NCBI GenBank assembly: GCA_905178155.1
Contig: CAJINV010000001.1
Coordinates: forward strand, 999,311-1,063,310
Direction: 5' to 3'
DNA from: Amoebophrya sp. A120
Taxonomy: Eukaryota; Protista; Dinoflagellata
Length of the DNA stretch: 64,000 nt
Positions 12,201-64,000 of this stretch are shown piece after piece (the first letter of the stretch is position 1; each line of letters opens with the position of its first letter). The notes beneath the pieces were generated by a model. The model was not told where the DNA came from, made no database searches, and saw nothing but the letters and a program-made list of their open reading frames with translations. The position numbers and the translations under genes were made by a program.

Positions 12201-15200
12201 CGCCCCACGGGCAGTCCTGCACGCTGTCGCGCTGCACGGTCACGGCAAAGAAAAACTGGTTCGGCCGCATCGTGGGGGTCGGACCGCCCGCGGGCCCCTT
12301 GATGAAGTTCTGGATCGCGAAAAACAAGATGGTGCAGACCAGGACGAAAAATATGCATTGCAAATGTGTCTGGGTCTGGAAGAGTGGGACTTGTAGTGCT
12401 GTCTGCGGATTCTAAAAATATCTGTGTTGCATGAGCAGCAAGAGGAGTCAGCTCTTGGCACGCGGAGAGGGCATTTCTCATGCGTAATTAGCATCAAGAA
12501 GCTCTCAAAAAATCTGTGATGCTAGCAACAGCATCACAGACCTCACGGGTCATCGTCATGCAAAATGTGCATGACAAGTCCCGACTCTTCCAGATCCAGA
12601 CCCAGACATTTTTGCAATGCATAAAAAACGTGGCCATGCAAATCTCGTAGTTCTCGACAAACACTTCGAACAGGTAGTGCAAGTCGCGGCCTAAAACCTG
12701 CTTCGCCTCGGCGATTCTGGCCTTCAATTCCTGCTTCACCAGGTCGGCCACAAATATCCTGCGGAGAAACGTCCCCAGCCCATATTTGTCATGCACATCG
12801 GCATGCTGAGAATATTTCTCACGCGGAGCCCCATGAGAAGCGTTTTCGAGTCGTGTTTTGGAATTTGCCATGCTCCAATCAGCATGATGCGCTAGATCTG
12901 TGATGCTACTGGACTACCTAAAAAGGATTACACTACGAGGCCACGGCGCTTGTCATGCGCAACAGCCAAAGCTCGTTGATTTGTCTAGCAGATTTCCCAT
13001 CTTGAGTATGGGGTGGGGACGTTTTTACACAGGATAACAAAAGCAAGATCTTCGAACACATACCGCTCCAAGTACTCCTGGAAATTCTCCGGCGCCTTCC
13101 GGGGCGGGTTTTCGAGCAGAAAGTTCGGCAAGGGGAAGGCTGGAGTGCTGACCACCCCCTGAAGTTGCTGTGCCTTCCGGCCGCGGTGCCGCAACCACCA
13201 GTACCGGGTGGCCGCGTCCAACCCACTGCCCTCGAAGCAGCTCTTCTGCGACAACACTTCCCTCTCTTCATCCAGAAAAACCCCGATCAGGCGGGTCGGC
13301 CCGTCAAACAGCGCCACCCGTGGACAGCTGTTGTTCGCGACCTTCGAGATTTGCTCTGCTTGCTGATGCTGGTGCTGCTGCCCCTTGTTTATTCCGTTAG
13401 TTGATGTTGCTTGACCAACTGCTGCTCCCGCTCCGCTGTTGTGAAAAGTGCTATCAGGATCAAGATCGAGCAACCCTAGCTGCCTCGCGGTTTGCTCCCC
13501 CAGAAACTGGTTCCAGGGCTCCGACGCCCGCATCCAGAAGCAGGCCAGCATGCCCTCCTTGGCGACGCGCTCGCAGAACTCCTGGGTGTGGCGGTAGGCG
13601 GACAGGTTCCTCGCCGCCCGCGCCTTTGCGTTCGCGGCCTGGACGTTCTCCAAGCGGGGGAGAAAGAGAACGAGAAACCGCCCGTTCGGGATCGTTAAGC
13701 TGTTCGCCTCGCGGAGAAAAAATTGCTTCTCGTGCGCGTGCCGCCCCAACTCCTCCTGCAGACTGTGCAAATCGGGGACCTCGATCCCCTCGTCCGTGAC
13801 CGGATCGATCAGCACATACGGCGAACTTTGGATTTGCTGGTAGAGTTCCTCAATACCGTCCGCCCGCTTCACCGCTCCGAAAGAACCAGTCGTGGTTTTA
13901 CCATTTCGCAAATCACCAGAAGTACTAGTTCCGGGTGGTCCATCTAGTATCTCGTTCTGCTCTCTATCGGCCTCCAGCAGTTCGGCGCGCGCGAGGTCGG
14001 GGGGCAACACGTGAAAGAAGCACGCGAAGGGGTACTTCTGGTCCCGGCGCAGGGCCAGCATGAAGAGTTCGAAATTCTCGTCCTCCGTGCGGGCCAGGTA
14101 AATGACCCGCAGACATCCGCTATGGCTTGCAAAAATGTCTGGGTCTGCAAGATTGCAACTTGTCATGCAAAATCCGATTCATGCAAAAATGTGTGTTGCA
14201 TCAGTGCCAAAAGCTGTCCACTTTCGACCAAGTTGGAAGGGCGTTTCTCATGCAGGAGAGGCATGACAGAGACCTCACAGACTCTATCACGCTAGGCCCC
14301 GCATTCCAGACCTCATGGGTCATGGAAAACCTGCATGACAAGTTTACACTCTCCCAGACCCAGACATATTTGCAGTTGATACCCGCTGCCGTCCGGGTGC
14401 TGCAGGAGCTGCTCGTCCGGATTCTCGTTCAGCCGCAGATACTGCACCAGCTGCTTGTAGGGCGCGCCGGTTTGCCGCACCGCTTGGAACCGGACGGTTT
14501 CCGCAACTAAATCGTACTGGAATGCGGTCTCCGACACCGTGAACGGGTCCGACCGCAGTTTTAAATCGGAATGCACCAATACCAGGCAGGGGTGCGTGGT
14601 CACTCCTAAATGCTCCAGCAGCGCGCTGTCCGCCTGAAACACGGGCACGTTGGCGAACCGGAAAAACTCGGATATTACAATGAAAAATGCCCCCTCCCCA
14701 TATCAAAACGGAGATCTGTGATGCTAAAACAACCGCACCGACATTGCCATTGTCCAGCATAGCTTTGGAGGCAAGCCTCCGCAGGCGCTGAATGTGATCT
14801 GTGATGCAGATTTGTGGTCACAAATCAGCTTTGTGATGCTAGAAGGCAAAAGATGCGGACTGTAGTGCTGTCGAGCGTGGGAAAGCCTTGCAGCTCCAGG
14901 ATGACAGGAGGCAACTGGAAGTGGGAAACAGCATGACAGATTACCTGCAATTTAGGCCGCAGCTTCGTCTCTTGGCCTTCTAGCAATACAAGTTGATTTG
15001 TATACTCAAACACAGCATCACAAATTCGCGCATCTTCCGGTTCCGATATGGGGTGGGGGGCTTTTTTCACTTTGATATCGGAATCCTCCAGCTCCGAAAC
15101 CCAGTCGCCGCCCTTCGTGTCCTATGAAATGCAAAAGCGTCTGGGTCTGGAAGATTCTAAACTTGTGATGCTGTCTCTGGATTCGAGAAAAATTTGTATT

Positions 15201-16007
15201 GCATGGCCAGTGAGAGCAGTAGATTTTGTGCTCCGCGGAGATGGCATTTGTCATGCGGAATAGGCATGAGGAAGCGCTCTGCAAATCCGTGATGCTAGGC
15301 CATGCATTACAGGCATTATGGATCATGCAAAATATGCATGACAAATCTTGCAATCTCCCAGACCCAGACATTTTTGCATTTGATATGTCCAGCCGGGAGG
15401 TGCCGTGAAAGACGTGGAGCAGCACGAATTTCTCGCTGTGCTTTGATTCGAAATCGAGGAGCTGTTTCACGGTCGTGATGACCAGATCCGCCTTATTCGG
15501 ATCCGGCCGCCGAGGCTGCCGGGAAGACGGGCCTGGAGTGGAGGTTTGATTTCTTGTTTGCGCAAAAATTATTTGACAAAACAATCGAAGACGAAAGAAC
15601 CATGGAAAAACTACTTCCTTGCATTTATTGTGTCTGGGAGTTCATCTACTTCAACGTACAAATATTATTTTGAAAAGAAAAATCCAATGAGTAGTACTCT
15701 GCGTCTGCACCCCCCGGTCGTACAGTCTTCGCCTGTTCGGGTCGCGCAACACATCGTATGCTTCCTTCACCTGCAAAAATTCCGTGTCGGAGCCCTTTTT
15801 GTCCGGATGCGCTTCCAGAGACCGTTGGCGGAATGCGCGCTTGATCTCTGCCGCAGTCGCGGACCGGTTGATGCCAAGTACGTCGTAAAGGTTTGCCGTT
15901 GCGGCCACTGCATAAGTAGTACCGACTCCAAGAACGTTGAGCAATGCTAGGAGCGTCACCGCGATCCCCAGAAAACCAGTTTGTCGCCACAGTAGAAACA
16001 CAGACAT
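9250..16007 (-). CDS. DnaJ-domain membrane protein (signal peptide, J-domain, thioredoxin-like region, TM helix, PDZ-like segments, low-complexity tail), spliced
   Basis: J-domain LYDVLGINRSATAAEIKRAFRQRSLEAHPDK with HPD motif; TM segment FFVLVCTILFFAI. Frame is continuous across the TIR introns checked (8 in the gene). Thioredoxin and PDZ calls are pattern-based and tentative. Confidence 0.75.
10877..11131. mobile_element. TIR introner family A
   Basis: Family A TIRs; DR TTTGC. Confidence 0.95.
11200..11349. mobile_element. TIR introner (shortest, 150 bp)
   Basis: TAT...ATA ends, imperfect TIR; DR TCAGC; frame restored. Confidence 0.85.
11601..11897. mobile_element. TIR introner family B-like
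   Basis: TIR TATTACRATGAAAAATGCCCC; DR GCACT. Confidence 0.92.
12352..12623. mobile_element. TIR introner family A
   Basis: Family A TIRs; DR AAAAA. Confidence 0.93.
12755..13036. mobile_element. TIR introner family D
   Basis: TIR TATCCTG....AAACGTCCCCASCCCATA; DR ACAAA. Confidence 0.95.
14121..14381. mobile_element. TIR introner family A
   Basis: Family A TIRs; DR TCCGC/CCCGC (synonymous mismatch). Confidence 0.93.
14673..15077. mobile_element. TIR introner family B with nested 71-bp insert
   Basis: DR TCGGA; body similar to 59889-60199; insert 14725-14795 lies between 12-bp repeats. Confidence 0.93.
15123..15385. mobile_element. TIR introner family A
   Basis: Family A TIRs; DR TGTCC. 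Confidence 0.95.
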
Positions 16008-17139
16008 TTTGGTCGATCTGGACGTGTCGTGTGGTTTTGATATGTGTCGAAATTCGTTTTACTTGGTAAAACTTAGCATGTAAATTTTCCATGTAGATGT
16101 AAATGTAAACAAAGTAATCAGTGATAGCCTAAGGTCCAAAGCACACACAAGCGCACTGATGAAATAGATTGACTTTCAATCATAAATGGAAAACAACCGT
16201 AACAGCTTGTTCAAAATACGACAACAGCGGCAGATTTTGAATAGGATCCCAAGAATTTTTCAAATCAGGTGGATCCAGGTCTTCTCTCTGCTTTTCTCCC
16301 TCCCAAGCTAGCGCTCGGCTCCCGGAAAACTAAAGTGAGATCTTCGCATATGAAGCACGCGACCAAATGAAATTCGAAAAATCAGAATAGCTGTGCGCTC
16401 CTTCACCGATTTGCATACCTGTCAGAACCGAGCTTAGCACAACTTTGATCTTCCTTCCTCCAATAAGCACACATCTGCGGCCGAGAAGGTACTTGGTGAC
16501 GACGCCCTGTCAGCCTCGCAGAGATACCTCTGTGACCAGTCCAACAAACCGTAACCATGAGCGCTCGTCATGGAATTCGCAGCCTAGCGTATTGTATGTT
16601 TTTGCGACGATTAGCCGAAACTGTATTTGAAAAATTCGTACAAAAGTTCATTTCCATTCCAGCGCGTCCGATCGCCCAAAACAGCGTGGCGCGGCCAGTG
16701 TTTGCATATCCGAACTTGATGCAGGGGCTGCATCTGCAACGAATCAAGACACGAATCGCGAAACCAACTAAGCTGCAGAAGCAAGGCTCGGTAATTTACA
16801 AGGATATAGCGACTTGTGTGTAGCAGGAGATCTTAGTGTAACCTGCTTTAGCAGATGTGGAAGAAGTCTTTCCAGGGTTATATCGTACACGATTTTGAGG
16901 ATATTTTATTTCGCTTTCCTGCTCATACAGTGAGGGATGAAGTAAACGATTCTTACTGAATTGATATTATACAAAATTCGTGCAGCAGCCCTGATGCACT
17001 GGCGTCGGCACGGTCACTTCCGTTTTATAGGAACTACCCGGATAGAACTCAACTAGTTTTGTCAAAGTTCCAGCCGAGTATAGCTCTTACTCTTTAAGTT
17101 GTACCTAACTAGCGGACTAGAGGAAAAACAGGCAAACTC

Positions 17140-20100
17140 CTATTTGCACATCTGCTGGATTCCCTCGAAGCACCAATCTTGTTTTTCGTACTTGAGCAAC
17201 CCCGCCAGCGTGATCATCAGGGTCGCAAAACAAATGAGGAACGCGAGGAGAAAGATCTATCCTGTGTAAAAACGTCCCCACACCATAGTTGTCACGCAAC
17301 TCTTTTTTTTTTTTTAGTTGTCACGCAACTCTGCATGCTTAAAATGTTTCTCATGCGGAGCCCCATGCAGAGCATTTTCTAATGGTGTTTTGAAATTTGT
17401 CATGCTCCAATCAGCATGAGAGACTAGATCTGTAATGCTGCTGAACTAGCTCAAACAGCACTACGCTACGCGTCCAAATTTGTCATGCCAAACAGCCAAA
17501 GCTTGTGGATTTGTCTAGCCGAATCCCCATCTTGACTATGGGGTGGGTACGTTTTTATTTAGGATAAGATCAGGATGCTCGTCATCTGCTTCTCCTTGAC
17601 CACCTTGTCGATTTTCGACTTTCCGAGCAGCGCCCCGACGAACGCGACGACGCAGAACAGCACGGAGTAGTATCAAATGCAAAAATGTCTGGGTCTGGAA
17701 ACTTGTGTTGCTGATACTTGCATTGCAAAATTGCTGCTTGTACGGCATAACAGCATGAGAAATTTCCCTCGGCTCCTTGCGGATTCATTCGTGTTTAGCA
17801 CTACAAACTGCCATCCAGCACGACAAAAAAGCTGACCAAAAATGGTATCCATGCATTCTGTAATTTACAGATCTTGTTGTCCTTGAAGTCCTGTAAGTAT
17901 CACAAATCCAGACCCAGGCATATTTGCACTGCATAAGTAGCTCCAGGGCACCAGACCAGAGGACACGAACATCAGGGCCGCCGAGGAGCTGGTGAGGGCG
18001 ATCAACGTCGCGGTGGTGGCGGTAGAGACCTGCGGGAGCACGCCCATCTGCAGCATCAAGGGCCCCAGCACCATGCCGCCGCCGATCCCGATTAACCCGG
18101 CCAGGATGCCGGCCAGGAAGGTCCAGCGGGCGTAAAACGCCGCCTTCTCAAAGGTCCACAGCACATCGCCCTCGACGAAGGGGTAGTCCACCGCCTGCTT
18201 CCGGACGGATTTGTGCACCGCCCGACGCGCCATCTGCACGCCGAAGCCGAACAGAAACACGAAGGCCAGGGCGGTGAAACTCCAGTAGGCCTCGCCGCAC
18301 ATGGGCACCAGCTCGTCCCCCAGCAAGCTGTCCATGCCCTTGCCGCCGCGGAAGAGCAAGACGAGCAGCAGAAAAATCCAGAGCACGAACAGGTACCCGA
18401 ACTGTCTCCAGGGCTGTTTTATCAAATGTAAAAATGTCTGGGTCTGGAAGAGTGCGCAATTTGTCATGCAGCTTTTCCATGACCCATGAGGTCTGGAATG
18501 CAGGACCTAGCATGACAGATTCTGTGCGATCACTTTCTCATGCCTATCCTGCATGAGAAACTGCCACCCGACTTGGTCAAAACTGGACGATTTTTGGCAA
18601 TCATGGTTGGTTGTGGATCGGCTCTGCCGACCGGGTAACCCAACGCCTTGCATACAAGTGACCGACTTAGGCGAGCCCCGTTGTGGGACATACAAATGGC
18701 CGTACGGAAGGGCCCTAAGCGCTACATACATAGTTCACCCTAAGCGCCTATTTTTGGGCAATCATGCAACACAGATTTTTGCATGCTTCAGATTTAGCAT
18801 GACAAGTTGCACTCTTCCAGACCCAGACATTTTTACATTTGATATGTTTGCTGTCGCGCGTCAGCCACTCGGTCGACCCGTACACGTGGTCCAGGTCTCT
18901 TTTGGACCGCATCCATTTCGGCGACTGCGCCTCCAGCTCGTCCAGCCGCTGCGACACGTTTGCGGGCAGGAGGGAAACAGGAGCTGGTTGCGAGGTCATA
19001 ATTCCGGGCTGAGCGTCGTGAACAACATGAACATCTTCTTCTCCGCGGTTTGCTACTTGGTCGAGATTCTCAGTCTGAATCGTCAAGCAGGCTTGCGGGC
19101 TGCTCGTGGCTGCTTTTGGCGCAGTGGAATTGTCCAGCAGGTTGAGGTTCGTGTCCTTTTTACTATCCCCGGCAACTACGCAGGGGGAGCCAGTGGCAGA
19201 TGGGCCCGCTGCAGGCGTGTTCACTTCGTTCGGTTGGCCGGTCGGTGGGTCGTCTCCTTCAGCTCCTGGTGCGGACTCATCCATGCCGGCCTAGTAGTAG
19301 GTTTAGTTTGGTAGTGTCTTTGTGCCGTTGATGGTGTACTAGCTAGAGGGCGTTATACGTTGTCTGCAGAAGCAGAATGATCTTCATCTTTCTCTAGCGG
19401 TAGGTACAAATACGTAGGCTACTGTTGCAAATAAAAATCGGTTGATTTTCGTCGTAAAAAAAATCCGCACAAAACTAAGTACCTCCCGGTCCTGCGTTAC
19501 AGCTGCGGGGACAACTTCCACATTCACATCGTCAGCAGTGATAGCCGCTGGTGCATCCTCTATCGCAGTAGAAGAACTCGGTTTATTGTTTTCCGTACTG
19601 GTTGCAGCAGCTGTCGGTCCGTTCTTCTTGGCCTCTTTTTCTGCACGAAGCTTCTTGTCTTTTTCGTGTTGCTTGAAAGCTGTGCAAGAAGAATTTTCAA
19701 TATTTCGGGTGATCGTTGTGGTAGTTTTCATCTGGTTCTACTCGATAATAGTTCCACGCGCGATCCATCGTATCAAAGAAATTCATCCGCTAACAAGAAA
19801 GTCCTATTATGTAAGTACCTTTCTTGAACGTCAACCTTCCAGTCTGCCCTAAGATCACCGCCATGATCAGAATGACGGCCCAGTCCGGCAGAAATTTCTG
19901 CACCAGTACCCCCAGCACCGCGCCTGCCATTTCCATCGGCGCCAGAAACAGAGCCATGTCTAAATCAATCAGCGGCCGGTCCGCGAGGGGGTGGCGGTTT
20001 TGCAAGTTGATCACCAGTCCGGCTATCGAGGCGCCAAAGATCGACGCCTGCGAGAGGCCGGTCGCCGTTTTTGCGCCAAAGCGAAGCAGCAGAATCCCCA

Positions 20101-21172
20101 CGGGAACGAAGATGCCGCCGCCGCCAACGCCGGCTGCCATCGCCAGGCCGGCTCCCACAAACCATATCAGCACCCCGAACAGGTCGTGCACCCAGTACTT
20201 GGACGAGAAAACCTGAAGGAAGAAATTGATGAATAAATTGTAGCTAAAACAAAAACAATTTTATTGATGTGGACGAAATTCAAAAATGTAATGCCGCTTC
20301 TTTTCACGAAGGGTCGGTGTTTCGAATGAGCGCTTTTTGGGAATAAGCACGATGTCCGTAGACCATAGTACATTCGACCGTGTACTACATGGTACATCGC
20401 TCCATGCTAATATGACATCGGTAGAAATTGCACCTGCCTCTTGATGCAGACTTTGGGATCCGAATCGGCGTCGGACACTTTGTAGTCTCCGCATTTAGTG
20501 CAGTCGGACTCTATATGCATTGCAAATATGTCCGGGTCTGGAAAGATGTAAACTTCTGATGCGCATCCATTTGAGAGCAGAAAAAAATCTGTCATGCATG
20601 GACCGCAAAAGTTGCTCACTTCTTGTCACCAAAAGAGGGAACTTGTCATGCGGATTAGGCATCGCCTAACCTACTCGAAACCTGTGTTGCTAGGACTTGC
20701 ATACCAGACCTTCTGGGTCATGCACAAACAGCATCACACTCGTTCAGACCCAGACATATTTGCATTTGATACTCTAGCGTGTTGGTTTCCGGGCAATAAA
20801 ACTTCGAGGATTCATATCGTGAGAAAAAAGTGTTACAGTTACACACTCTGATGGGAGACAAGCAAGACAGATAACCTCTGTCATGCAGGAAATGCTTGCC
20901 AACCTCATTTCATACGTGTTTTCCCTTATAGTCTGCGCATCACAGGTTTTCTTTGCCATGTCGAGCAACTTTGTGATGCAGAAACTCCAACAGGTGTGTA
21001 ACTGTAACACTTTTTCCTGTGATAATTCACAAGCAAAAACGGCGACACTGTCAAGCTGCACGGCGGTGAGGAATGCAAGAGCCAGAAAAGTACTAGTGCC
21101 ACGACCTGTGGTCCTTGTCGACGTCGAGAAATGTTTTCTGCTCATCTTGCCCGAATGATCAATACAATACAA
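17140..21172 (-). CDS. TauE/SafE (TSUP) sulfite-exporter family membrane protein, spliced; 5' end approximate
   Basis: Motifs AMAAGVGGGGIFVP, RHPLADRPLIDLD and AGLIGIGGGMVLGPLMLQMGVLPQVSTAT; 4 TIR introns; stop TAG at 17140-17142. Confidence 0.85.
17258..17566. mobile_element. TIR introner family D with nested poly(T) insert
   Basis: DR AGATC; T12 lies between 17-bp repeats. Confidence 0.95.
17671..17935. mobile_element. TIR introner family A (divergent body)
   Basis: Family A TIRs; DR AGTAG. Confidence 0.92.
18420..18844. mobile_element. TIR introner family A with nested ~145-bp insert
   Basis: DR TGTTT; opposite orientation to 1215-1476. Confidence 0.95.
20514..20771. mobile_element. TIR introner family A
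   Basis: Family A TIRs; DR CTCTA. Confidence 0.9.
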
Positions 21173-22501
21173 TAATCATTCACAAAAAGTTTTTTGTGTG
21201 CAGGTCCCAAAAGGGGGGGGCAAAGGCCTAAATTTGCGTCTCACCTCGCATGGGAAGATGCGGTTCCCAGGTACCTCGTCAGCATACCAAAATTTGCGAA
21301 AAAACTTGTGGTGCGTGCAGTCGCTCAAGTCGTAAAAAAAATAAACGAACTAGCTGTGCGTGAATACACGAAAAGAATGGTGGAGCAATGATGTCGCCGA
21401 TGAGGATAAAGTGCCACACTTACAATCTAAAAGTTGTGCCGACGAGGGTCTACAAATCGAAAAAAAGCGCTAAGAGCCTCAGCCTCACGCAGAGACGAGT
21501 GTAGTATGTTCGGAAGAGATCGCTGCGAGAACTTGGAAGAACTTCTCGCTCGCGCCACGACACACCATGCAGAAGATCATCTGCACTGTCAGTTTGGGGA
21601 GAAAAACTGACGGCACAGAATGCGTGCGTTTAGACAAGGACTAGACGCTCACTCGTTTCGAACTCAGATGGTATACAGGCAAAGACGACACGCCCTCGTC
21701 TTATTTCATCGTGGAACAAGAGAACATGTTCACGGAGAACGATGTTGCGCACCAGAGTAATTCGATTCATCCGGGATATGCAGCCAGTCAGGCTCTACTA
21801 TAAGCATTTTCAACATCGCGTGAAACTAAAATGTCGTTTCTATTGAAATAAAGTTCGCTTGCAATGGAAGTTCTTTCTTCCTTGTTTCGATAACTACTTA
21901 CCATCGAATCCGTAGCACATCACCGGTATGGCTATTCGATAAAATTATATATTCTCAAAATTCTCTATAAACGAATGGATCTACTTGCCCCCTTCGCCGG
22001 CCCATTTTTGCCGGCCCATGGCGGTGCAACTCGGCAGCGCGGGCAGAAACAGAAAGTTGCTGGCGATATTAAAGTGAAAAAAAGTATCAAACAATTCCTA
22101 TGGCGACTTTTACAGCAATTCGCTATATTTTCATCTTTGGATATTCGTAAATTTTTTGGCAAATCGCGCTTTAGTTTTAGTCATTGGTTTCATTTTGAGA
22201 TGCAAATTGATACAGTAAAAACCTCGTGTTCCTTTCATTATATCTGCACAGACAGCAAATTTTTCGCTGCCCTCTCATCAAGAGAGGCTACTTATTCGAA
22301 TCTGGACAAAGAAAGCTCCGAAAAGTCACGGGTTCCGCGATTAACTGTCATGTCTGTATTCACTAAAATTTGTGATGTGGATGCAAAAGTAGAAACGCGA
22401 ACTTCTACTGCATGGACTGAGTCATGATGTTGTGCACGGCGAATGCATATCTGGTCCGTAGTCGATCGTACCTGTTGCGTTACACCAAAGTCGATACCTC
22501 G

Positions 22502-50400: not shown

Positions 50401-50735
50401 TACAAACAACATCTGCATTTTTTTCCCGGTGAAAAAACGTCGTAGTTGATATGCATATCAGTTTAAAATCAAGCGACATGGGAAACAAGTAAAGAGAGCA
50501 AGTGCTGCACCTTGTCTTTGGTTTGCTTTTCTATTTCCTTTTGTATTGTCTCCAGCGCATCCTTGCAGTCGACGTTGTGGTCCGCCAATTCGGGTGTCTT
50601 GGTGTCAAATTCACCCTTCGCTTCACCCTTCAGTTTCTCGAACAGCGTTGTCAAAGTGGTGTACGCCGCGCCCGGAGCAGCCTGGACGAGCCCCGCCCCA
50701 GCAGAAGCGAGCAGCGCCCTGCGCGAAACCCGCAT
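47469..50735 (-). CDS. Secreted coiled-coil protein of a dinoflagellate-type family, spliced
   Basis: Signal-like N-terminus MRVSRRALLASAGAGLVQA; heptad-rich exons; C-terminal CKDYKSMYASRMEARK...EIDNLKKAKDAL; several GT-AG introns and 1 TIR intron. Confidence 0.7.
48134..48452. mobile_element. TIR introner family B
   Basis: Family B TIRs; DR TGGCG. Confidence 0.93.
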
Positions 50736-51297
50736 TGTATCCTGTCCTCTCAACTACCCGATAACTCTACCCCGAGCAACTGCCAATGCGGGGGTCTTCG
50801 AAATAAACGAGTAGTTGTAACAGTTGATTGTTGCGGGACGACCACACAAACTTGCAATGTGTTTTGAAAAAGGCAAGGAAAACGAAACAGTTGGATCTTC
50901 TGTCAGATCCCGGTTGATCGATCAGTGCGTCAACATAAGCACAGAAAAAATAAAGCACACTAAAAACGGCTCACAGAAGAGAACAACCTTGCCGCTTCAT
51001 CTTTATTGCCACCGTGCTTGCACTAGTTCCAAATTCCATAACCGAAAATGAGGTTAAAATGCAGAGCAGCTCACTGTACCCCTACGTGCTGCGCGGAAAA
51101 ATCCTTTCAGTCAGATCTTTAGATGTCGCGTCAAATGAGCCGCATTTCGAAACAACTCGTGAGGTCTTTAGATGTAAAGTTGTGCGCCAGTCGAGGTCTC
51201 GCTTTATTTTCCTAAATGATGAATGAGAACTTGCGATCAACAATGCCAAAGCGCGTCTTTTTCCACAAATATCAAAATCTGCTTTGTTATCCTATTT

Positions 51298-54277: not shown

Positions 54278-55337
54278 GTCGAATAAGGCCACAACGCGGT
54301 GGCTTTCCGATCATTTTTTTCACTGCGTGGAGAAACCTCGCTTAACTAAGTGGGCTCACTTCCACAGACTCACCTACAGAAACGCTCCCTTCCATTGGTT
54401 GTAACGCATGAGAGGGGGGAGGGTCTGAAGAGGACGCAATACAACACAGCGCAATTATAATTGTTCACAAACAAAGCGATCGCGTTTCGTATCTCGAGCC
54501 TCACGGAAACACGAGTAGTGTGTGTTTGGGACAGATCGCTGCAAGTTCTACAAAGGAAGAACTCTTCGACAAATTATTTGTGTCTCCAGGCTGACAGACG
54601 CGAATACAAAGGACCTCGGATCAAGAACTGCATCGCGGATTTATTTCAGAAAAAATAAAATGGATAAAGTCACAGGTGCAACCGAATAGCTCTATCCGGT
54701 TGATACACGAGAAGAAGAAAAACCGAAGGCACAGGGAGCAGCATACTTAATACCGATAAAGCACGGAGCGAAGGAGCCGGGTTCGTGGGCGTTCACAAAA
54801 CGGACCGCATGAACTAAAACAGGAACGTTCCACCTGTCAAACTGGACAAATCCAGCGCACTAAGCGTGTAAACTCGCACGTCCCCAAGGATTCTAAGCAC
54901 ATCTGACCCAGCACACTTGCAAGGTCTAAAACCCGACACGAGCTCTTCATCTTTTTATCACGGGAAACCATAGACTCAAATTACACAGCTGCAACCTTAT
55001 CAAAACTATCGAAACAACACGCGCTATCTTCTGTACTGTAGTAAAACCATTGCTATCAGAGGAAAAAAGAACTTATACCATTGCTATCTGAACTACGGAA
55101 AAACCTTGAACTTCTGCTATCTGAACTACGAACATGAAATCTGAACTACAACTAAGTACGTAAAAATGAAAAAAATAAAATGAAAAAATAAAACGGTCTT
55201 CAACTCGGTGTCAAGTAAGGCCACGAAAGTTTGCTTGGAAAGTGCGCACCCAGTGGTCAAGTGCTGCTTCCTCTCGGGTGTGCTGTGACACGGGCGGAAA
55301 GTGGGTGTACTACCAAAAATCTTCAAACCTTCAGCAC

Positions 55338-58300
55338 TCAAAAGCCCTTCTTCGCGGAATCCAAAATGCAATCGCAGTCGTCGCCGGTCTTCTTGCTGAC
55401 CATTTTGTTGGACTTGCTATCCAGGATGCAGTCGCAGTCGTCCTTCTTTTTCTGCGCCTTCTCTTTCTGCACCACCATGGCCACGGTCTTCGAGGGTTGC
55501 TTGGAATCCAAAATGCAATCGCAGTCGTCTCCGGTCTTCTTGCTGACCATCTTGTTCGACTTGCTATCCAAAATGCAGTCACAGTATCCTGATTGAAAAC
55601 GTCCCCACACCAGAGCTCAAGATGGGAATTCTGCTAGACAAATCACACAGCTTTGGTTGTTTGGCATGACAGGTTTATTTCCCTCGTAGTGTGATCCTGT
55701 TTAGCTAGCTCAGAAGCATCACAGATCTAGCATAGCATGCTGATATCAGCATGACAAATCCCAAAACACGATTAGCAAATGCTTCTCACAGGGCTCCGCA
55801 TGAGAAACCATTTTGGCATGCAGAATTGCATGACAACTCTGGGGTGAGGATGTTTTTTCACGGGATACGCAGTCGTCCTTCTTCTGCTTCCTCGCCAGCA
55901 GTGGCTTTTTCTCCGCTGGCTTGCTCGGCGTGGCGCGATATGCATTGCAAATGTCGATCTGGGTCATGTCGCAGATCATATCTTTGCGAGATCATTAGTC
56001 ATGCCGGTCTGGCGTGAAGAGGACTCCGAGTTTTGTATTCCGTGGCTTCCTCGAAGAAATCTGTTGTTGCCTGTCCTGCAAATAAAGAACGTTCAACTAC
56101 ATTTCCGCAGCGTTTTTTGCTGACCAATCCCTGATTTATGCAACATCACAGAGCTTTTCCGAGCAGGACCCAGATGAACTATTTACACTTGATACGCGGA
56201 CCTGCAGGAAGGACTCCTCGTCCGAGCTGAGGATCTCCAGCGCGTCCTTCAACCCCGCGATCTCGGCCTCGCGCCGCTTCTGGCGCTCCTCGTAGCTCAT
56301 CGCCTTGTTGGCGCAGGCCTCCATGACCCCCTTCAAAAAGTCCGTGGCCGCCTGCAGCGCCTTGTTGGCCTCGGTTAAATCCTCGGACATCATGCCGATG
56401 CTCTCCTTCACGCCCGCCTTCTCCTGCGTCTTGCCCTTCACCTCGGCCTCCTTGGTGGCTTTCGCGACCTGGGACTCCTGCATAAACTTCTCATACTTCT
56501 CCACCGCGTCCGACTCTGCAGCCTCCGTCTCCTGCTTCAGCTTCTCAAAGTCCTCCTGGGCGGTCTCCAGAATGCTGATGATGGTGTTCGCGGCGTCGGT
56601 CTGCGGCTGCTGCAGAAAGCTGGTGCTCTTGCCGTAGAACTCGGACAAGGCGGTGATGGCACCGTTGATGGCCTCGACGGACTCAGCACTGTCCTTGATC
56701 ACCGCGTCATTCTCCTTCTTTTCCTATCAAATGCAAAACTACTGTCTGGTTCCGGAAAGTTGCAGTGCTCGAAGGCGTACTAGATGCTCAGCAAACTGCA
56801 ATATTACCCGACCAAGCATGACAAGTTTATGAGCTTCTGCGCTGTGGTGCGCATAATTCCGCATGGCAAGATGCGCAAGACCGGCAAGACGGTGCTTTAT
56901 TCGTGCATTTATTGCACCAAAGAACTCAAAGTCGTGTGAAATGAGCATGAGAAATTATTCGCTATCTTCCAGACCACCAAGACATGCTTTATTGCAATGC
57001 ATATTTCCTTCCCACGGATGGCCGTGCGCTCCTTGACGTCCGCGGCTAGCTCGGCCAACTGCGCCTCCAAATCGCTGATCTCCGTGCCCAGCTGCGCGAA
57101 CTTGGCCTCGGCGGCGTCGACCCGGCTCTGCAGCTTCTTGGACTCGCCCTTGCGGAGCTTCAGGTCCTTGGTGCCCTTCTCCTTGTCGGCCTTGCACTTG
57201 GCCTCCTTGGAAGCCTCCTTCGCCGCCTCGTCTTCCAACTTTGTGATCATCTCCTTAATCATGCCACGTACCTTCACAAACGGGTCGGCCTGGGCGCTGT
57301 TGGCGGCCTGGATCAGCGCAAATTGGTTGTAGGTGCGCCCCAGTCGGCGGAGCATCAGGCTCACCTTCGCGCGCTTCTGCGTCTCCTCGGAACCAACCTC
57401 GTCGGAAATCTGAAATTATAACCAAAGGGATTTTTATATGGTGGAAGCGAATTGCGATTAGAACTTCCCACAGGTAAAAAAAAAATTTTAAATTCAAATG
57501 CAATGAGCATGCCGTGGGTCTAATCTTCATGCCCTATCATCATATGCAGCGTCTGAAAAAAATGAGGAAGATGTAAATCGCAACACTTTATGACCGCAGT
57601 GATCGCTCAACGTGGTCTGTCAGATAAATTTCCAATACCTGCAAGAAGGATTCGCCGCCGAACTTGCCACTGAGGATCTCGATCGCCTGCCCGAGGGCGC
57701 CGGACTCCTGGGTGGCTTCCTCCTTCCGTGCGGCCCAGCTCTTGGCCTTGGAGTCGCACTCGGCCTTGGTGTTGGCCAGCTCCTCCGTGTCGGACTTCAG
57801 CACTTCCTCGGCGGACGCGAGGTCGCCGCCCGCGGTCTTACCCGCGGCCTCGGCCTTGGCCGCGTTCTCCTTGGCTGCTTCCATTTGTTCGGTTTTGCTG
57901 GTCTCCTGATTCTTCAAATCCTGCATCAGCAGCTCAAACTCGTGGCGGGCCTTGAGATCTTTTTCCCGAATACCAGCCAGAACCTCGGCGTTCTTCTCCT
58001 GCATGCCCTGAATCGCGTCCAAAGTTTATGGAGATGAACAAAACTGCCTCTTCGATAAGAAAGGAAGAGATTCTTTAGATTTGCCAATATTTTGTTTCCG
58101 AACTTCTTCATTATTCAATGCGAGAACAAAAGTTCATCGTTGGTCTCTCGTGTTGAACAAGGAAAACTACTCATGTTAATTTTAAAATACAACCCGCAAG
58201 ACAAAAGATTTCGCAACTATTATAACAGTTCCGTGGGTGATGTAGTTCTCGTTAAACTTAAAAGCAGTTGTTTTCAGTCGCATAGAATTCCGCCGGACTT

Positions 58301-60214
58301 GCTCTGGTAGCTGGACGACACTGCTTGCGGCTGGCCCAGTATGGCATTCTCAACCGTTACACTCTGAACTGTCACATGAATTTGTCACGCAAGACTACCT
58401 TAAGCCGCCAGATGATCAAGCGGCTTCGCATGACAAATCCCCGAGAAGCGAAGCAGCATCCAAGTCTGTGCCAAATCTGTGATGCGAAAGCAGCAAGCTT
58501 GCCCTACTTTTGGCTGTTGCTGTTCTTGCATCACAAATTCATGGAACAGTTGAGAATGCAACAGTTGAGAACGCCATACCCAGACGGAGCTCGTTCGACT
58601 CCTCCAGGAACGCCTTGATCTTTTGTTGGCTCTCCGCGTCCATCGCAACTGACTCGATGATGGTGGACAGTGCCGTGACGGCGTTCTGGGCTTCCCGAAC
58701 CGCCTTGCTGGACGCGATTCCGTCCGTCTGCGTGAAGGACAGGGATCGCTTCAGGACGGAGTATGCCTTCTGCAGCATGGTGTCGGCCTCCACTAGCTCC
58801 GCCTCTTCCTTTTGAAACGTCGCGTGGGCCTCCTTGCGTTTTCTATGCAGGGAAAATCCAACGACAATAAAAGTCATGCCGAACTGTAGCATGTGCCTTA
58901 ATCAACTCGAAGTAGAGTATACTACGCCTCATTATCATTTGATCCAGATTGTTCTGCTTACAGCTAGTGCTCCGCCCACGCACAAAGACCATGCGGTGCA
59001 GAATACACTTGTATCTCTATGCCGTTGGATTTCATTTTTCCCTTTGCGTACTCATCAGCAGCCTTTGTTTGCTCGCCCTGCAGTGTGGCAATCTCCGGAG
59101 TCAAAGTAGCAACCTGGAGGGAGAGTTGATGATGAGACTTTTAGATTTACAGCTGTTGGCACTCACTGTACTGCAAGTAGATCGTCGTAATTTCTTGCCC
59201 GATAATCATCCATCTCTTTCTGCTACATGTTTTTTATTCTGACAATCACAGTAGTTCTAGTTTCAATAGTACTACTTATATGCTGTTTCACTTTTTATTT
59301 CCCTATGAATAAAACTAGCGCAAAATAAATCTCAAGACCTCGTTCGCGAAGCCGGAGGCCTTTGCTGCTTCGTTCTCCACAGTTGCTTTTAACTCCTCAA
59401 CCTTCTCCCCGCCGTACTTCACGTCCGCTTCTCCTTCCGTGGTCGTTTTGATGCACCAATTCTCGAATTCCTCGGCCTCTTTGTCGCCGTCGGTAATTTC
59501 CTGTTCCACCTTCGTCTTCATGTCCGTGAGTAGAGAAATCACTTTTTTGATGCCGCTGTTGCCCGTATGGATTGCAAAAATGTCTGGGTCTGGAAGATTG
59601 CAACTTGTCATGCTAAATCCGACTCATGCAAAAATCTGTGTTGCATGAGTGCAAAAAGCTGCCCACTTTCGGCCAACTTGGGAGGGAGTTTCTCATGCAG
59701 GATAGGCATGAAAGAGACCTCGCAAGCTCTGTCATGCTAGGTCCCGCATTCCAGACCTCAAGGGCCATGGAAAACCTGCATGACAAGTTCACACTCTTCC
59801 AGACCCAGACATTTTTACATTTGATAGCCCGCTTCCGCCCGACTTTTCAGCGCGACCACGGCGCCCGTCGCGCCGGACGCGACGAGAATATCAAAATGAA
59901 AAATCCCCCCTCCCCATATCAAAACGGAAATCTGTGATGCAGATTTGTTGTCACAAATCAGCTTTGTAATGCTACACGGGAAAAGATGCGGACTGTAGTG
60001 CTGGGTGGCGTGGGGAAGCCTTGCATGTTCAGCATGATAGGAGGCAGCTGGGAGTGGGAAACAGCATGACAAATTGCCTGCAAATGAGGCCACGACTGCG
60101 GCTCTTGGCCTTCTAGCATGACAAGTCGATTTGTGACCTCAAATACAGCATCACAAATTTCGTTTTCGATATGGGGAGGGGGGATTTTTCCTTTCGATAG
60201 AGAACACGACGCAT
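55338..60214 (-). CDS. Secreted coiled-coil protein (dinoflagellate 'SFLQ'-type) with Cys-repeat C-terminal tail, spliced
   Basis: MRRVLVASGATGAVVA...SGIKKVISLLTDMK...FENWC, QPQAVSSSYQSKSGGILD, ADPFVKVRGMIKEMI, SYEERQKRREAEIAGLKDALEILS and several SFLQ motifs; 7 TIR introns plus GT-AG introns. Confidence 0.8.
55355..55584 (-). repeat. Coding tandem repeats encoding DDCDCILDS(K) units
   Basis: Four CDCILDS units and two KSNKMVSKKTGDD linkers. Confidence 0.9.
55585..55867. mobile_element. TIR introner family D
   Basis: DR CACAG/CGCAG (TGT/TGC, synonymous). Confidence 0.92.
55939..56194. mobile_element. TIR introner family A-like (diverged)
   Basis: DR CGCGA/CGCGG (synonymous); frame restored. 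Confidence 0.85.
56725..57003. mobile_element. TIR introner family A-like (diverged)
   Basis: TATCAAATGCAA...TTGCAATGCATA; DR TTTCC. Confidence 0.88.
58027..58284. mobile_element. TIR introner (highly decayed)
   Basis: Ends TATGGAGATGAACAAAACTG / TATGCGACTGAAAACAACTG; DR AAGTT/GAATT; removal gives SGGI|LDAI. Confidence 0.7.
58340..58578. mobile_element. TIR introner (singleton type)
   Basis: TIR TATGGCRTTCTCAAC; DR CCCAG; removal gives LRLG|QPQA. Confidence 0.9.
59566..59826. mobile_element. TIR introner family A
   Basis: Family A TIRs; DR GCCCG. Confidence 0.95.
59889..60199. mobile_element. TIR introner family B
   Basis: DR GAGAA; inserted after the fifth codon of the gene. Confidence 0.95.
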
Positions 60215-62573
60215 CCTTTCTGTCCAACTGGCTCTCGCGATGCGTTCCTCCTATCAAGTGGGGGCAGTAATTATCGTTATTGATTCTTATTTCATAATCT
60301 TCACGAGAAAATAAACAGATACCCGCCGCTAGAGCAGGCGACGATACGTACACCATAAAAATTTTGATTTCGTACAGACCAAAACTTTAGACCACATGCG
60401 CCCGAAACAAAGCCGCCCGCTTTCCACCGACAAACGATCCAACACAGTGGGGACGACGAGGACGCTAACAGGCAAAGAGGCAAAACACCAAAGAAACTGG
60501 GAGACGCAAAATAAAATGTGGTGGACACAACGACACAAAGAATGTGCGAAATATGGAAAACCGGATCAGACCATAAACTTTGTGAACCTGCTGTTACCTT
60601 CGCGAACACAAACTTTTATTGGAGTCCTTGCCAATCAATCTGTATGATCTGCGGCAAGCTCTCTAAACAGTCCCCGGGACGACTGGTGCATGAGGACTCA
60701 CTGTCACTTACAACTGTAATACAACACACAATTCTATGAAACTTCAAAGCGTGCGTCAGGTGGAAATGGAATGCGAAGCAGTGGGATGCGAAGCATAATT
60801 ACCACAGCAATTAATAGCCCGATTCAACAAACTCTACCGTGTCTTCAGCAACGACACGGCCCCATCAGAGCAGCCCGAAGCAGGAGACTCGCGTCATTTT
60901 GCCTATGCATTTCCGTTGTATTCTGTCCAAAATACGCATCTACATTGGACGGAGCCTAAAAGTTGTCCACTGCCGCAGTGCATCAAACATATCTTCGCAC
61001 TGGCGCCGAGTGTCTTGTTACTCATACCATCGATGTAGTACCCAGCTGTTTCAAACTAGTCGCTGCTTGCCAAGCTTATTATACAGTTTTAAAAAGTGAT
61101 ATTTAGCAAATACAGTTTTTACCGTCCACATTACACACACATGAAAACTTCGCTACTAGCTTCAACTTGCGCAGCACGCAGCTCTAATTCTCGCCGCAAT
61201 GGCGTGCATGCCGAAATCGAGTGCTAAAGATTAAGCAGACAGCGGCCGCTGCTCATCTCGCGCCACATCGTTTTGCAGCGAAAAGAAAGTAGTAAATACA
61301 AGCCAAAAATAAAATTCTACCCCGCGTGAAGAGCTAAAAGAAGAACCTGCACGAAAGAAATACAACAGCAACTGATATTGATTTTATATTTCCATGTCGA
61401 GACACAAAGATGCGGCCCTTCTTTAAAAAATATCACCTCGATCGAGAGGTACAGACGTCACAGTATTCGCTGTTGGGCCTTGTTATGACAAAACAGATTG
61501 TATTAGCTACTGCACTGCTTTCCGCGCCGCTGCAACCTGTGTACTCATTGGCAGGGACGGCCTTCTTTGCTACGTGCGTTTAGGACATTGGGAGAGAGAA
61601 ACTTTCGTGAATGAGAAATAAATAAACGAGATAGAAAGTATGTCAAAAAGTAGAAAATCAGGATGTACAGGATACAGCAAACCATTTTATCATAGGCATG
61701 AGCCATCCGATATAACAACTATTGCGACGTCTATTCGTATAATTCGAGCAGAAAAGTTACAAGTTTGGACCTTGCGAGAATGCTACAATAAAGTTTGGAT
61801 CATTGTCAGGCTTGAGAAGGACTACAAAACGGCATAAATAAAGGGGCCCGAGGTACATTTGAGTGTGCATTTGTATGATTTCGTTTCCGAAGCGCAAAAC
61901 GCATCAGTCTCACGGGATGCTCGTCCGTTGCCTGACGAGACAAAAGAGCATCGGCGCGAAGTTCCGGCTGACATATCGGCTACTCGGAACTGCTATTTCG
62001 AAAACACATAACAAACTTTAGTTCTTAAACTAAAATGACCCGCCCTTCGTGTCCTCCGTTCCCCGTGGTCAATGAGCATCCCGAGTACTAGAGACTTGTG
62101 TGCGATTAAGTTTAGTTTCCATTTGAAGAATTTGATTTTTCGCTTTTAAGTTTGATATACGAGTTCACGATAGAGTTTGGTAAAAGTTTGAATCGATTGA
62201 GCTCTTCTTGCACGACAGTCCGCGCGCTTCATTTTTGAATATTCCTGGTTTCTAATTAGCAAATGCAGCTTGAGGTGCAGTCAGTGTACTTAGCAGTATG
62301 GGAAACGAATAGTACGAAAAGAAACAAAAATACAAATTGGCGTTGTTGATGCCAGGACAGAAGGACCCTGGCGACAGCCTGCGCGCAGGAGAGCGCATAG
62401 GTACTAACTTCAATGGGTACTGACATTTTACACGATATACGGCGACAAGCTCCGGTGCGCGGCCATTGTTGTGGACATTTCGATGTTGCTCTGGAAAAGA
62501 ACCGCAACTACTCCAGTGATACATATTAACGTTTTATTTCCGAGCATGTCACCCAACCACCGCATCCTTATTT

Positions 62574-64000
62574 TCACGGAGACTTGCTGTCTTCCCGACC
62601 GAACCAGCGTTTCACTGTGGTCGCAACGGTGTTCAGCACCGTAGCCGCCCCGGCCGGTTCCGTCGTGTCGCCCTTTGCGATATGCATTGCAAATATGTCT
62701 GGACGTCTGGAGAGATGCAGTTTGTCATGCGAACTTTCGATCAAATAAAAAAAAAATCTGTGTTGCGTAGAAGCCAAAAGTTTTTTGCACACTTGTTGCT
62801 AATTATAGCAACAGGCGTGTTTCTCATCAAATGGCGTAGGCATTAGGAAGGTCATCTCGCGAATTTATCTGCGAAGATGCTTCTGCGTGCAATAGAGACA
62901 AGCCGGTTGTAGTTGTTCGCTTGGATGCATGACGAATAGTCCTGAGATCTTTCAGACCCAGACATATTTGCAGTTGATACGCAAGCTCTGGACCCCAGGT
63001 TGCATGGTTTTGGATCAGCTCCACGATCTCAAAATGCCCTTCGCACCTGCAGATTTAGAAAAATATGTTGCAATCATGTGAGATGGCGCTCGAAGAGCTA
63101 CATACTGGACAAAAATTAGATGCAAACGACCAAAATTTTTATATGAGTTCATGCACGTCCGCTGCAACACGGTGGCGGTGCCACCCAACATTCTTCACAA
63201 CCACAAGACAAGTGCCTCTTTCCTGACCACACGGAAACAGAACATACTTCGCCAGGTCCAGGCAGGTTTGCGCGCCGCGGTCCTTGCAAAGCACGAGTCT
63301 TTTGGTGCAGTGCTTGTGGTTCATCAGAAACTGTACGATGTCCATGAATCCCTTTTCGCAGGCGGCGTGCAGGCAGCTTGTGCCGTACTTAGTTTGCGCG
63401 TTTATCAGGTGAGGTGGAAAATGCTTGTGGTCCAGTAGGTACTCCACGATGTTGGTGTGTCCCGCCTCGCAAGCCGAAAACAAGCATGTTGCGTGGTACA
63501 CATTGAGCGAATGCGTGATCAGTTCCTGAAATTGGAAATAAGGTTCTCTTGTCTTTTCGAAGGTCTCCTAGAAAAAGTTCTTGCTCCGAGGGAGTGATGT
63601 AAAAAAACGGTGGAAGTCATGAGACTCATCATTTTTTGATTGTTTGGGTATTAAGCACTACTGAACAAAGCCAAATAAACCTGTCACAAAATAAACGTCA
63701 GAGATGAATCTTCTACAACGCACCTTTCTCTTCCCGGTGTTGTCGTTTGTGGTGCAGAAATTCATCAACGATTCGACGACGTTCAAGTGGCCCTCGCTGC
63801 AGGCGAGCTGCAGACAGGTCATGTCCTGTTTGTTCTTGGAGAAGAGTAGGTTGTACTTTTCGGCCGCGGGTGACTTCACCAGGTATTCCACAATTAGCAA
63901 ATGCCCCTCGGCCGCCGCCACGTGCAGGCAAGTGTCCCCGAGATTGTTGCGGTACATCACCAGCTATCAAATGCAAATATGTCTGGGTCTGGATCTAGAA
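62574..64000 (-). CDS. Ankyrin-repeat protein (3' part; continues beyond window)
   Basis: Ankyrin motifs GDTCLHVAAAEGHLLIVEYLV, TCLQLACSEGHLNVVESL and GTSCLHAACEKGFMDIVQFL. Confidence 0.85.
62681..62979. mobile_element. TIR introner family A
   Basis: DR TGCGA/CGCAA (both mismatches synonymous). Confidence 0.88.
63965..64000. mobile_element. TIR introner family A, left end only
   Basis: TATCAAATGCAAATATGTCTGGGTCTGG; truncated by the window edge. Confidence 0.85.

What the first reader, a model, noticed from the sequence alone, without database searches (positions are those of the whole stretch)
14116..62984. Mismatches between the two 5-bp repeat copies are mostly synonymous
Ten of 44 complete elements have imperfect repeats, 13 mismatches in total. 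Eight are synonymous in the host frame: GGG/GGA (14121), GGG/GGC (38803), CAG/CAA (41450), TGC/TGT (55585), GTC/GTT (55939), CTG/TTG (58027) and CTT-GCG/CTC-GCA (62681, two). If one copy were neutral intron sequence, only about a quarter to a third would be expected to be synonymous. Inference: either copy can reach the mRNA (sliding junction), or the intronic copy is constrained by the excision machinery. These sites are natural markers for mapping the cut position. The sample is small.
Basis: partly seen in the sequence, partly recalled or inferred. Interest (0 to 1): 0.8.

Follow-up and report, generated by a model that had tools for sequence, protein, structure and literature searches.

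The report
Fixed cut site in parasite introns
These are the already described transposon-derived introns of the marine parasite Amoebophrya; the silent differences between their two flanking 5-base repeats are real but likely ordinary drift, and they serve as markers showing that the intron is likely cut at one fixed place (four bases kept from the first repeat, one from the second) rather than at a sliding one.

Summary
The window is Amoebophrya sp. A120, and the elements are its published TAT...ATA introners. I find 46 complete elements; 11 have imperfect 5-bp repeats, with 16 mismatches, 10 synonymous.

With a fixed cut both copies drift at silent sites but mainly the intronic copy at replacement sites, so 43-51% synonymous is expected, not about 33%. 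In 205 elements of a closely related assembly, 25 of 51 mismatches are synonymous, as predicted.

RNA contigs bridge 4 of the 11 mismatched junctions. Only one cut fits all four: bases 1-4 come from the upstream copy and base 5 from the downstream copy. An annotated protein, a decayed element and a conserved enzyme agree. The intron would be N-TAT...ATA-NNNN, with U at +2, any base at +1 and no AG. Contigs cannot exclude rare sliding.

Side result: a distant palindromic target preference, T(-13) G(-11)...C(+11) A(+13), explains the codon-phase bias.

The parts
14116..14386 (-). Introner 14121-14381 with repeats GCGGG (upstream, 14382-14386) and GCGGA (downstream, 14116-14120); mismatch at repeat position 5, Gly/Gly
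33741..33987 (-). Introner 33746-33982, repeats TTCAC/TGCAC; position 2, Ser/Ala
35700..36028 (-). Introner 35705-36023, repeats AAGAG/AACAC; positions 3 (Lys/Asn) and 5 (Ser/Thr). The annotated A120 protein P0003 reads Lys-Thr, so 3 or 4 upstream bases are kept
37619..37816 (-).
38798..39083 (-). Introner 38803-39078, repeats GCGGG/GCGGC; position 5, Gly/Gly
41445..41728 (-). Introner 41450-41723, repeats GCAGC/GCAAC; position 4, Gln/Gln
51966..52229 (-). Introner 51971-52224, repeats TTCCG/ATCCG; position 1, Phe/Leu. RNA contig carries the upstream allele (1-5 upstream bases kept)
55580..55872 (-). Introner 55585-55867, repeats CTGCG/CTGTG; position 4, Cys/Cys. RNA contigs carry the upstream allele (4 or 5 kept)
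55934..56199 (-). Introner 55939-56194, repeats CCGCG/TCGCG; position 1, Val/Val. RNA contigs of two samples carry the upstream allele
58022..58289 (-). Introner 58027-58284, repeats AATTC/AACTT; positions 3 (Ile/Thr) and 5 (Leu/Leu). RNA contigs carry the upstream base at 3 and the downstream base at 5 (3 or 4 kept)
58839..59055 (-). RNA-bridged GT...AA intron that reads as a decayed element (TAC...ATA, 58844-59050) with diverged repeats ATGAG/GAAAA; again 3 or 4 upstream bases kept. Not counted among the 46
   Evidence: no clear family match, so element status is inferred
62676..62984 (-). Introner 62681-62979, repeats TTGCG/TCGCA; positions 2 and 5, both synonymous in the frame of the ankyrin-like gene's last exon
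   Evidence: not bridged by RNA contigs
816..60199 (-). 35 further complete elements with perfect repeats, starting at 816, 1215, 2825, 3690, 4019, 7026, 7378, 10877, 11200, 11601, 12352, 12755, 14673, 15123, 17258, 17671, 18420, 20514, 20815, 23706, 26811, 30121, 31070, 34499, 38464, 39152, 39697, 40749 (one end TAC), 41131, 45231, 48134, 56725, 58340, 59566, 59889
   Evidence: four of them RNA-bridged with exactly element+5 nt removed
25542..43326 (-). Host frame of 4506 codons, open only after removing each element plus 5 nt; holds five of the mismatched elements
   Evidence: parts match annotated A120 proteins P0001-P0003 at 99-100%
55300..60250 (-). Host gene whose transcript contig joins across 10 introns: 7 catalogued elements, the decayed element and 2 GT-AG introns

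Best explanation
These are Amoebophrya A120 introners whose two 5-bp target-site copies start identical and likely diverge by ordinary mutation, while splicing likely cuts at one fixed place that keeps four bases of the upstream copy and one of the downstream copy. SHOWN: element plus exactly 5 nt is absent from transcript contigs (8 of 8 bridged catalogued elements); one allele combination is seen per bridged junction; 4+1 is the only register compatible with all four mismatched ones; mismatches rise with element age; the synonymous share matches a fixed cut. INFERRED: at every repeat position one copy is exonic and one intronic, so silent changes survive in either copy and replacement changes mainly in the intronic one, which gives about half synonymous. 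INFERRED mechanism (about 55% for this part): the host's U1-less major spliceosome reads the intron as N-TAT...ATA-NNNN. The first T of the terminal repeat would be the usual U at intron +2, G at +1 and the final AG would be dispensable, and the 3' cut would be set four bases beyond the terminal repeat. Because 1+4 equals the 5-bp duplication, any insertion in either orientation would be removed without a scar.
For: RNA joints 51965>52225, 55579>55868, 55933>56195 and 58022>58286 allow 1-5, 4-5, 1-5 and 3-4 upstream bases; only 4 fits all. P0003 reads Lys-Thr at 35705, which allows 3-4. The decayed element at 58844 allows 3-4. At L026:3778 Lys (upstream copy at positions 2 and 4) is the commonest residue, 32 of 67 aligned homologues (6 gapped), including the A120 and A25 orthologues; the alternatives Asn and His are not among the residues listed. 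At L026:5305 the upstream copy gives Gly, found in 67 of 67. If cuts were random per locus, the chance that all eight fit register 4 is 0.002, and that they fit any one register 0.018. Synonymous share: 25 of 51 in 205 elements of the second assembly, silent/replacement rate ratio 2.0-2.5 against a predicted 2; pooled 35 of 67 against 43-49% expected. Mismatch number correlates with distance to the nearest relative (Spearman -0.26, p=8e-7). No base preference at repeat positions 1-5; only 7 of 205 would be GT-AG. All 9 predominant A120 non-canonical motifs in Table S4 of PMC7789003 begin N-T. Terminal-T variants occur at the 3' end (3 of 13 strand-resolved variants) and not at the 5' end (0 of 13). 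Nearest relatives lie in both orientations, 125 against 99.
Against: Only 4 of 11 mismatched junctions are bridged by RNA, in two genes, from one study, as contigs that drop rare forms; alone they would share some register by chance half the time (0.51). Register 3 is excluded only by 55585 (one sample) and by the homologue argument at L026:3778. Exon dN/dS was not measured: at 0.5 the fixed-cut model under-predicts the pooled share (P=0.021), while both copies constrained at dN/dS 0.3-0.5 also fits (P=0.07-0.73). The N-T pattern of Table S4 may be partly aligner bias (EST2GENOME and BLAT), and P0003 comes from that pipeline. The terminal-T asymmetry is 3 against 0. No sign of selection on an RNA hairpin: G-U wobbles 139 against A-C 147 over repeat positions 4-20 (summed), and the one element folded is no more stable than shuffles (z=-0.08). 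No lariat or spliceosome evidence was obtainable.
Confidence: 0.72

Rival explanations
1. Sliding junction: the cut falls at variable places within the repeat in different molecules, so both copies reach the mRNA and both are under coding selection.
For: The pooled synonymous share, 35 of 67 (52%, 95% interval 40-65%), is at or slightly above the fixed-cut expectation, and both-copies-constrained fits if exon dN/dS is 0.3-0.5. Contigs cannot show minor forms. PMC7789003 (Fig. [quoted passage not shown]
Against: One form per bridged junction and no 'other letters' at a 2% threshold in the four runs. The downstream copy would break an invariant Gly at L026:5305 and give His or Asn for Lys at L026:3778. 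A cut after base 1 would make a stop at L059:2532. Rejected at dN/dS 0.1-0.2 (P=7e-9 to 0.001).
Confidence: 0.08
2. The cut is fixed for each locus but the register differs between loci or element families, and 4+1 is only the commonest.
For: Four RNA junctions alone share a register by chance with probability 0.51. Polarella introner classes use several frames (passages of 10.1101/2020.10.14.339549). The A120 paper reports repeats varying in length and position.
Against: Eight informative sites, in several genes and two assemblies, all admit register 4 (any common register by chance 0.018). Repeat length is 5 and not 3, 4, 6 or 7 in 376 elements.
Confidence: 0.12
3. The cut is fixed, but the machinery also needs the two copies to stay alike, or needs particular bases in the intronic copy, which thins replacement mismatches.
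For: Five of 6 position-5 mismatches in the window have G in the upstream copy, which would give a GT donor. There is a residual excess if dN/dS is high.
Against: The G bias did not replicate: upstream G 3, downstream G 2 among 7 in the second assembly. Elements with 3 or 4 mismatches still leave an open frame or are spliced (37624, 58844). Mismatches accumulate with age. No base preference within the repeat.
Confidence: 0.06
4. Removal is non-spliceosomal (endonuclease plus ligase, or circle-forming excision as proposed for euglenid nonconventional introns) with the same 1+4 geometry. This is a rival for the machinery only; it is compatible with the fixed cut.
For: No GT or AG requirement; U1 snRNA not found in A120 or A25; euglenid introns also have an inverted repeat set nearer the 5' than the 3' end.
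Against: U at +2 appears retained and 5'-specific. Nearly all spliceosomal proteins and U2, U4, U5, U6 are reported for A120. No wobble-pair signal for an RNA stem. A Fritillaria precedent uses the spliceosome (review passage).
Confidence: 0.3
5. The elements are removed from DNA, as with ciliate internal eliminated sequences, or the mismatches are assembly errors.
For: The type of runs X4, X5, X7 and X8 is only guessed as RNA. The DNA run's joint table was cut (393 rows not shown).
Against: The same contigs also lack GT-AG introns. X1 contigs run through whole elements at flank depth (about 44) with 0 other letters.
Confidence: 0.02

Closest known systems
Amoebophrya sp. A120 introner elements (Farhat et al. 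2021, PMC7789003)
   Same: Same organism; TAT-starting inverted repeats with an A-run, 3-5 nt direct repeats, non-canonical RNA-supported introns of about 240 nt.
   Different: In the text I saw, the border is left as unknown or variable (Fig. 3 legend) and repeat mismatches are not used ('synonymous' has 0 occurrences in the main text). [quoted passage not shown] Figures 3, 4 and S19-S25 could not be seen.
Micromonas, Aureococcus and Polarella introners (review PMC11282704; 10.1101/2020.10.14.339549; PMC12130899)
   Same: Non-autonomous inverted-repeat elements that become introns; part of the target duplication ends up in the intron; phase bias follows insertion-site sequence.
   Different: Those recruit GT/GC/GA or AG from the duplication or the element, so usable targets are restricted. 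Here the duplication has no base preference, and the phase bias comes from bases 11-13 nt outside it.
Euglenid nonconventional introns (PMC12501133)
   Same: Inverted repeats near both ends, offset from the cuts with a longer 3' trailer; direct repeats make most borders ambiguous; non-slidable cases are used to fix the border.
   Different: CAG/CTG motif rather than TAT/ATA; proposed to be non-spliceosomal; another supergroup.
Fritillaria borealis non-canonical introns (seen only through the review)
   Same: MITE-derived introns with inverted repeats and target duplications, removed by an adapted spliceosome.
   Different: Prevailing AG-AC and AG-AT ends; here N-T...NN.

Membership tests
Amoebophrya A120 introner elements | Host is Amoebophrya sp. 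A120 | tested here: met
   Window exons match proteins named A120 at 100% (P0001, P0003)
Amoebophrya A120 introner elements | Inverted repeat starting TAT, seven looser bases, then at least three A | tested here: met
   End profile TAT at 1-3 (required by the search) and A 0.87-0.95 at 11-13; definition
Amoebophrya A120 introner elements | Direct repeat of 3-5 nt overlapping the exon-intron border | tested here: met
   5-bp repeat only: identity 0.88-0.91 at length 5, 0.21-0.31 at lengths 3, 4, 6, 7
Amoebophrya A120 introner elements | Removed from transcripts as non-GT-AG introns | tested here: met
   8 of 8 bridged catalogued elements lose element+5 nt; run type is guessed, GT-AG introns are also absent
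Amoebophrya A120 introner elements | Repeated in families | tested here: met
   Mean nearest-neighbour identity 86% for perfect-repeat elements
Non-autonomous TIR DNA transposon (MITE) | Terminal inverted repeats and a fixed-length target duplication | tested here: met
Non-autonomous TIR DNA transposon (MITE) | Palindromic target preference as expected of a symmetric transposase | tested here: met
   T at -13 and G at -11 with A and C at the mirror positions, no co-variation between sides
Non-autonomous TIR DNA transposon (MITE) | Cognate autonomous transposase with the same ends | not tested
   No genome held; superfamily not assigned
Canonical U2 spliceosomal intron | GT (GC)...AG ends | tested here: not met
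   0 of 46 in the window and 7 of 205 in the second assembly are GT-AG under register 4
Canonical U2 spliceosomal intron | U at intron +2 | tested here: inconclusive
   Follows from register 4; 3 against 0 end asymmetry; Table S4 agrees but may be aligner-biased
Canonical U2 spliceosomal intron | Lariat intermediate with branch point | not testable with these tools
   No raw reads of this strain were offered
Euglenid nonconventional intron | CAG near the 5' end and CTG near the 3' end | tested here: not met
   Ends are TAT and ATA; definition
Euglenid nonconventional intron | RNA stem between the ends under selection | tested here: inconclusive
   Ends can pair, but G-U 139 against A-C 147 and z=-0.08 for one element
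Ciliate-type DNA-eliminated sequence | Excised from somatic DNA | tested here: not met
   DNA contigs traverse whole elements at flank depth; one sample only

The most novel reading that the evidence does not exclude
Amoebophrya has reduced splice-site recognition to a ruler set by the transposon end. A U1-less spliceosome needs only U at +2, supplied by the first base of the terminal repeat, cuts one base before it and four bases after the other end, and ignores G+1 and AG. Any insertion with a 5-bp duplication, in either orientation and at any sequence, thus becomes a scarless intron, and intron phase is set only by a transposase contact 11-13 bases outside the target.
Probability: 0.45. Interest if true: 0.8.

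Novelty: already known. Interest (0 to 1): 0.45.

Why it matters
The elements are published, and the synonymous excess needs no new biology. What is useful is the marker. The source paper leaves the border of these tens of thousands of non-canonical introns open; mismatched repeats fix it at 4+1 and turn an open question (how a U1-less eukaryote splices introns without GT-AG) into sharp tests: U at +2, a 3' cut four bases past the terminal repeat, lariat or circle. The distant target preference gives a signature for finding the unknown transposase and shows that intron phase bias can arise without recruiting splice-site bases. I did not find either result in searches, but could not see the paper's figures or subscription-only papers.

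Tried and rejected

No listed holder was on record as RNA. Laying the DNA run with the RNA runs swamped the joint table. 62681 was not bridged.

A homologue search with exon 36029-37618 found nothing among 929-2650-residue proteins. P0001 and P0002 span no mismatched junction. A Pfam scan of 54 exon pieces hit 9. Solved-structure alignments did not reach the site for L032 or the upstream exon of L055; the downstream piece gave His at the Arg/Pro site in the best hit, a weak preference for the downstream copy at position 5. L022 is not the orthologous locus.

Rejected: drift towards a G at intron +1 (5 of 6 in the window, not replicated); AG at repeat positions 3-4 (not enriched); phase-0 excess as support for register 4 (explained by target preference, p=0.20); exon-exon pairing at -13/+13 and -11/+11 (56 observed against 70 and 65 expected); polarising mismatches by AT bias (no clear pattern, read by eye). 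Two look-ups of earlier scan notes returned nothing.

Full report
WHAT IS THERE. A scan for TAT...ATA pairs with inverted-repeat similarity, plus one element with a TAC end, gives 46 complete elements of 150-665 nt, each flanked by a 5-bp direct repeat, and one cut off at 63965. Removing element plus 5 nt opens minus-strand frames of 4506, 1511, 1388 and 724 codons. Exons match proteins labelled Amoebophrya sp. A120 at 100%. The elements fit that strain's published introners (PMC7789003: abstract, sections 10, 16, 25, passages of 11 and 32, supplement legends and Tables S4, S5, S7 seen; figures not seen).

THE OBSERVATION. Eleven of 46 elements have mismatched repeats: 16 mismatches, 10 synonymous. 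By repeat position in gene orientation the counts are 2, 3, 3, 2, 6. DNA contigs agree with the window at the five mismatched elements inside 51500-64000.

THE NULL. A target duplication starts as two identical copies. With a fixed cut, each position has one exonic and one intronic copy; silent changes persist in both, replacement changes mainly in the intronic one. The expectation is 2S/(2S+N(1+w)), not S/(S+N). With a spectrum taken from 162 related element pairs (transition/transversion 2.1, CpG transitions 5.4-fold), the one-copy null is 33.9% (P=0.038 for 8 of 13, 0.018 for 10 of 16) and the fixed-cut null is 50.6% to 44.1% for w=0 to 0.3 (P=0.24 to 0.11 for 10 of 16).

A LARGER SAMPLE. 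A pattern scan returned 152 loci (522 kb) of one other assembly. Its enzyme at L026 is 95-100% identical to the A120 orthologue in the cleanly aligned exons, with a few differences, so it is a close relative and not an outgroup; none of the 30 non-element hits I printed (of 82) showed an orthologous window exon. A detector that does not use the direct repeat recovered 43 of 45 window elements with 2 extras and found 376 unique elements. I dropped 25 with two or fewer of five repeat matches, then 146 without a confident frame, leaving 205; the frame caller agreed on 43 of 46 window sites, partly circularly. Result: 25 of 51 mismatches synonymous (strict filter 22 of 45, loose 30 of 65). The one-copy null is rejected (P=0.010) and the fixed cut fits (P=0.55 to 0.21). 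Pooled 35 of 67: fixed cut P=0.36 to 0.075 for w=0 to 0.3 and 0.021 at 0.5; both copies constrained P=7e-9 at w=0.1, 0.001 at 0.2, 0.07 at 0.3, 0.73 at 0.5. Since w was not measured, the ratio alone cannot separate a fixed cut from both copies constrained under weak selection. Mismatch number rises with divergence from the nearest relative (Spearman -0.26, p=8e-7), as post-insertion drift predicts.

THE MARKER TEST. Let k be the number of upstream-copy bases kept. Contigs of runs guessed to be RNA (X4 and X5 one sample, X8 another, one study) bridge 4 of 11 mismatched junctions: 51971 k=1-5 (X4), 55939 k=1-5 (X4, X5, X8), 55585 k=4-5 and 58027 k=3-4 (X4, X5). Four perfect-repeat elements lose exactly element+5 nt. 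No second form and no other letters were listed, but contigs drop rare variants. Only k=4 fits all four. Further sites: annotated protein P0003 reads Lys-Thr at 35705 (k=3-4; its independence from the laid runs is not established); the GT...AA intron at 58840-59051 reads as a decayed element with k=3-4; in the second assembly Lys at L026:3778 (k=4-5) and invariant Gly at L026:5305 (k=1-5) match 67 aligned homologues, taken from the top 69 of 120 hits. If k were random per locus, some common value would exist with probability 0.51 (four RNA sites), 0.066 (six window sites) and 0.018 (all eight).

HOW IT LIKELY WORKS. Inferred: a symmetric transposase inserts the element with a 5-bp stagger. The flanks show T at -13 in 51% of symmetrised sites against 23% background (346 sites) and 44% against 19% in the window (45 sites), G at -11, and the mirror bases on the other side, with no co-variation. 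This predicts phase shares of 19, 33, 48% against 42, 56, 107 observed (p=0.20), so phase says nothing about the cut. With k=4 the intron is N-TAT...ATA-NNNN. The repeat has no base preference, and only 0 of 46 and 7 of 205 would be GT-AG. The first T of the terminal repeat falls at +2, as in the window's canonical donors GTATTG and GTCTTG. All nine predominant A120 motifs of Table S4 begin N-T and all nine of A25 begin TT, though aligners that favour GT may have produced part of this. Among 22 elements with one changed terminal base, 13 had a resolved strand: position 1 changed 3 times at the 3' end and never at the 5' end, positions 2 and 3 evenly (2:2, 3:3). Relatives lie in both orientations (125 against 99), so the signals must sit in the terminal repeats. 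I favour the U1-less spliceosome with a relaxed +1 and a distance-set 3' cut (about 55%) over a nuclease-ligase route (about 30%). An RNA stem is possible but unsupported: no wobble excess (139 against 147), z=-0.08 for one element.

COMPARISON. It is a member of the A120 introners (all tested features met). It works like other introners in splitting the duplication between exon and intron (review passages; preprint passages; PMC12130899 passages) but recruits no GT or AG. It resembles euglenid nonconventional introns in geometry (PMC12501133, passages and section 5) but fails their motif.

VERDICT. Observation confirmed and slightly extended; sliding not supported; a fixed 4+1 cut is likely (0.72). 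The system is known; the register and target preference are modest additions that I did not find in searches. Unseen figures S19-S25 of PMC7789003 may already show the register. Interest 0.45.

Noticed in passing
flanks of all elements, window and L001-L152: Palindromic target preference far from the duplication: T at -13 and G at -11 (T avoided at -11), mirrored by C at +11 and A at +13; no preference inside the 5-bp repeat; it explains the codon-phase bias.
   Followed up: yes
window 58840-59051: RNA-bridged GT...AA intron that looks like a decayed element keeping the 1+4 geometry; old introners may account for other odd introns.
   Followed up: partly
window 40749-41074 and 21 elements in the loci: Elements with one changed base in the terminal triplet; changes of the first T were seen only at the 3' end among strand-resolved cases.
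   Followed up: partly
window 25542-43326: A continuous 4506-codon frame after splicing. The public annotation covers it with separate pieces (P0003, 123 aa partial; P0001 starting at 32769 and running on to 22505). No Pfam hit in the three exon pieces scanned.
   Followed up: partly
window 37619-37816; element pairs: CpG transitions are about five times commoner than other transitions in element alignments, which suggests CpG methylation; all three mismatches at 37624 are of this type.
   Followed up: partly
window 59576-59826, run X9: Raw RNA reads of a 2026 run with the same species label hit only the element family, with foreign flanks, and no exons at 92% likeness: another strain or locus holds an unspliced copy of the same family.
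   Followed up: no
element ends, window and loci: End variants TATCAA, TATGCA, TATGGA and TATGAA recur and are often paired unmatched within one element (position 4 mismatched in 82 of 205), which hints at shuffling of ends between copies.
   Followed up: no
window 59889-60199 and L022:2965-3280: Near-identical element copies at unrelated loci of the two assemblies, which suggests recent activity of this family.
   Followed up: no
window 62560-64000: Ankyrin-repeat-like gene (label from my reading of the translation, not from a family scan) with both GT-AG introns and introners.
   Followed up: no
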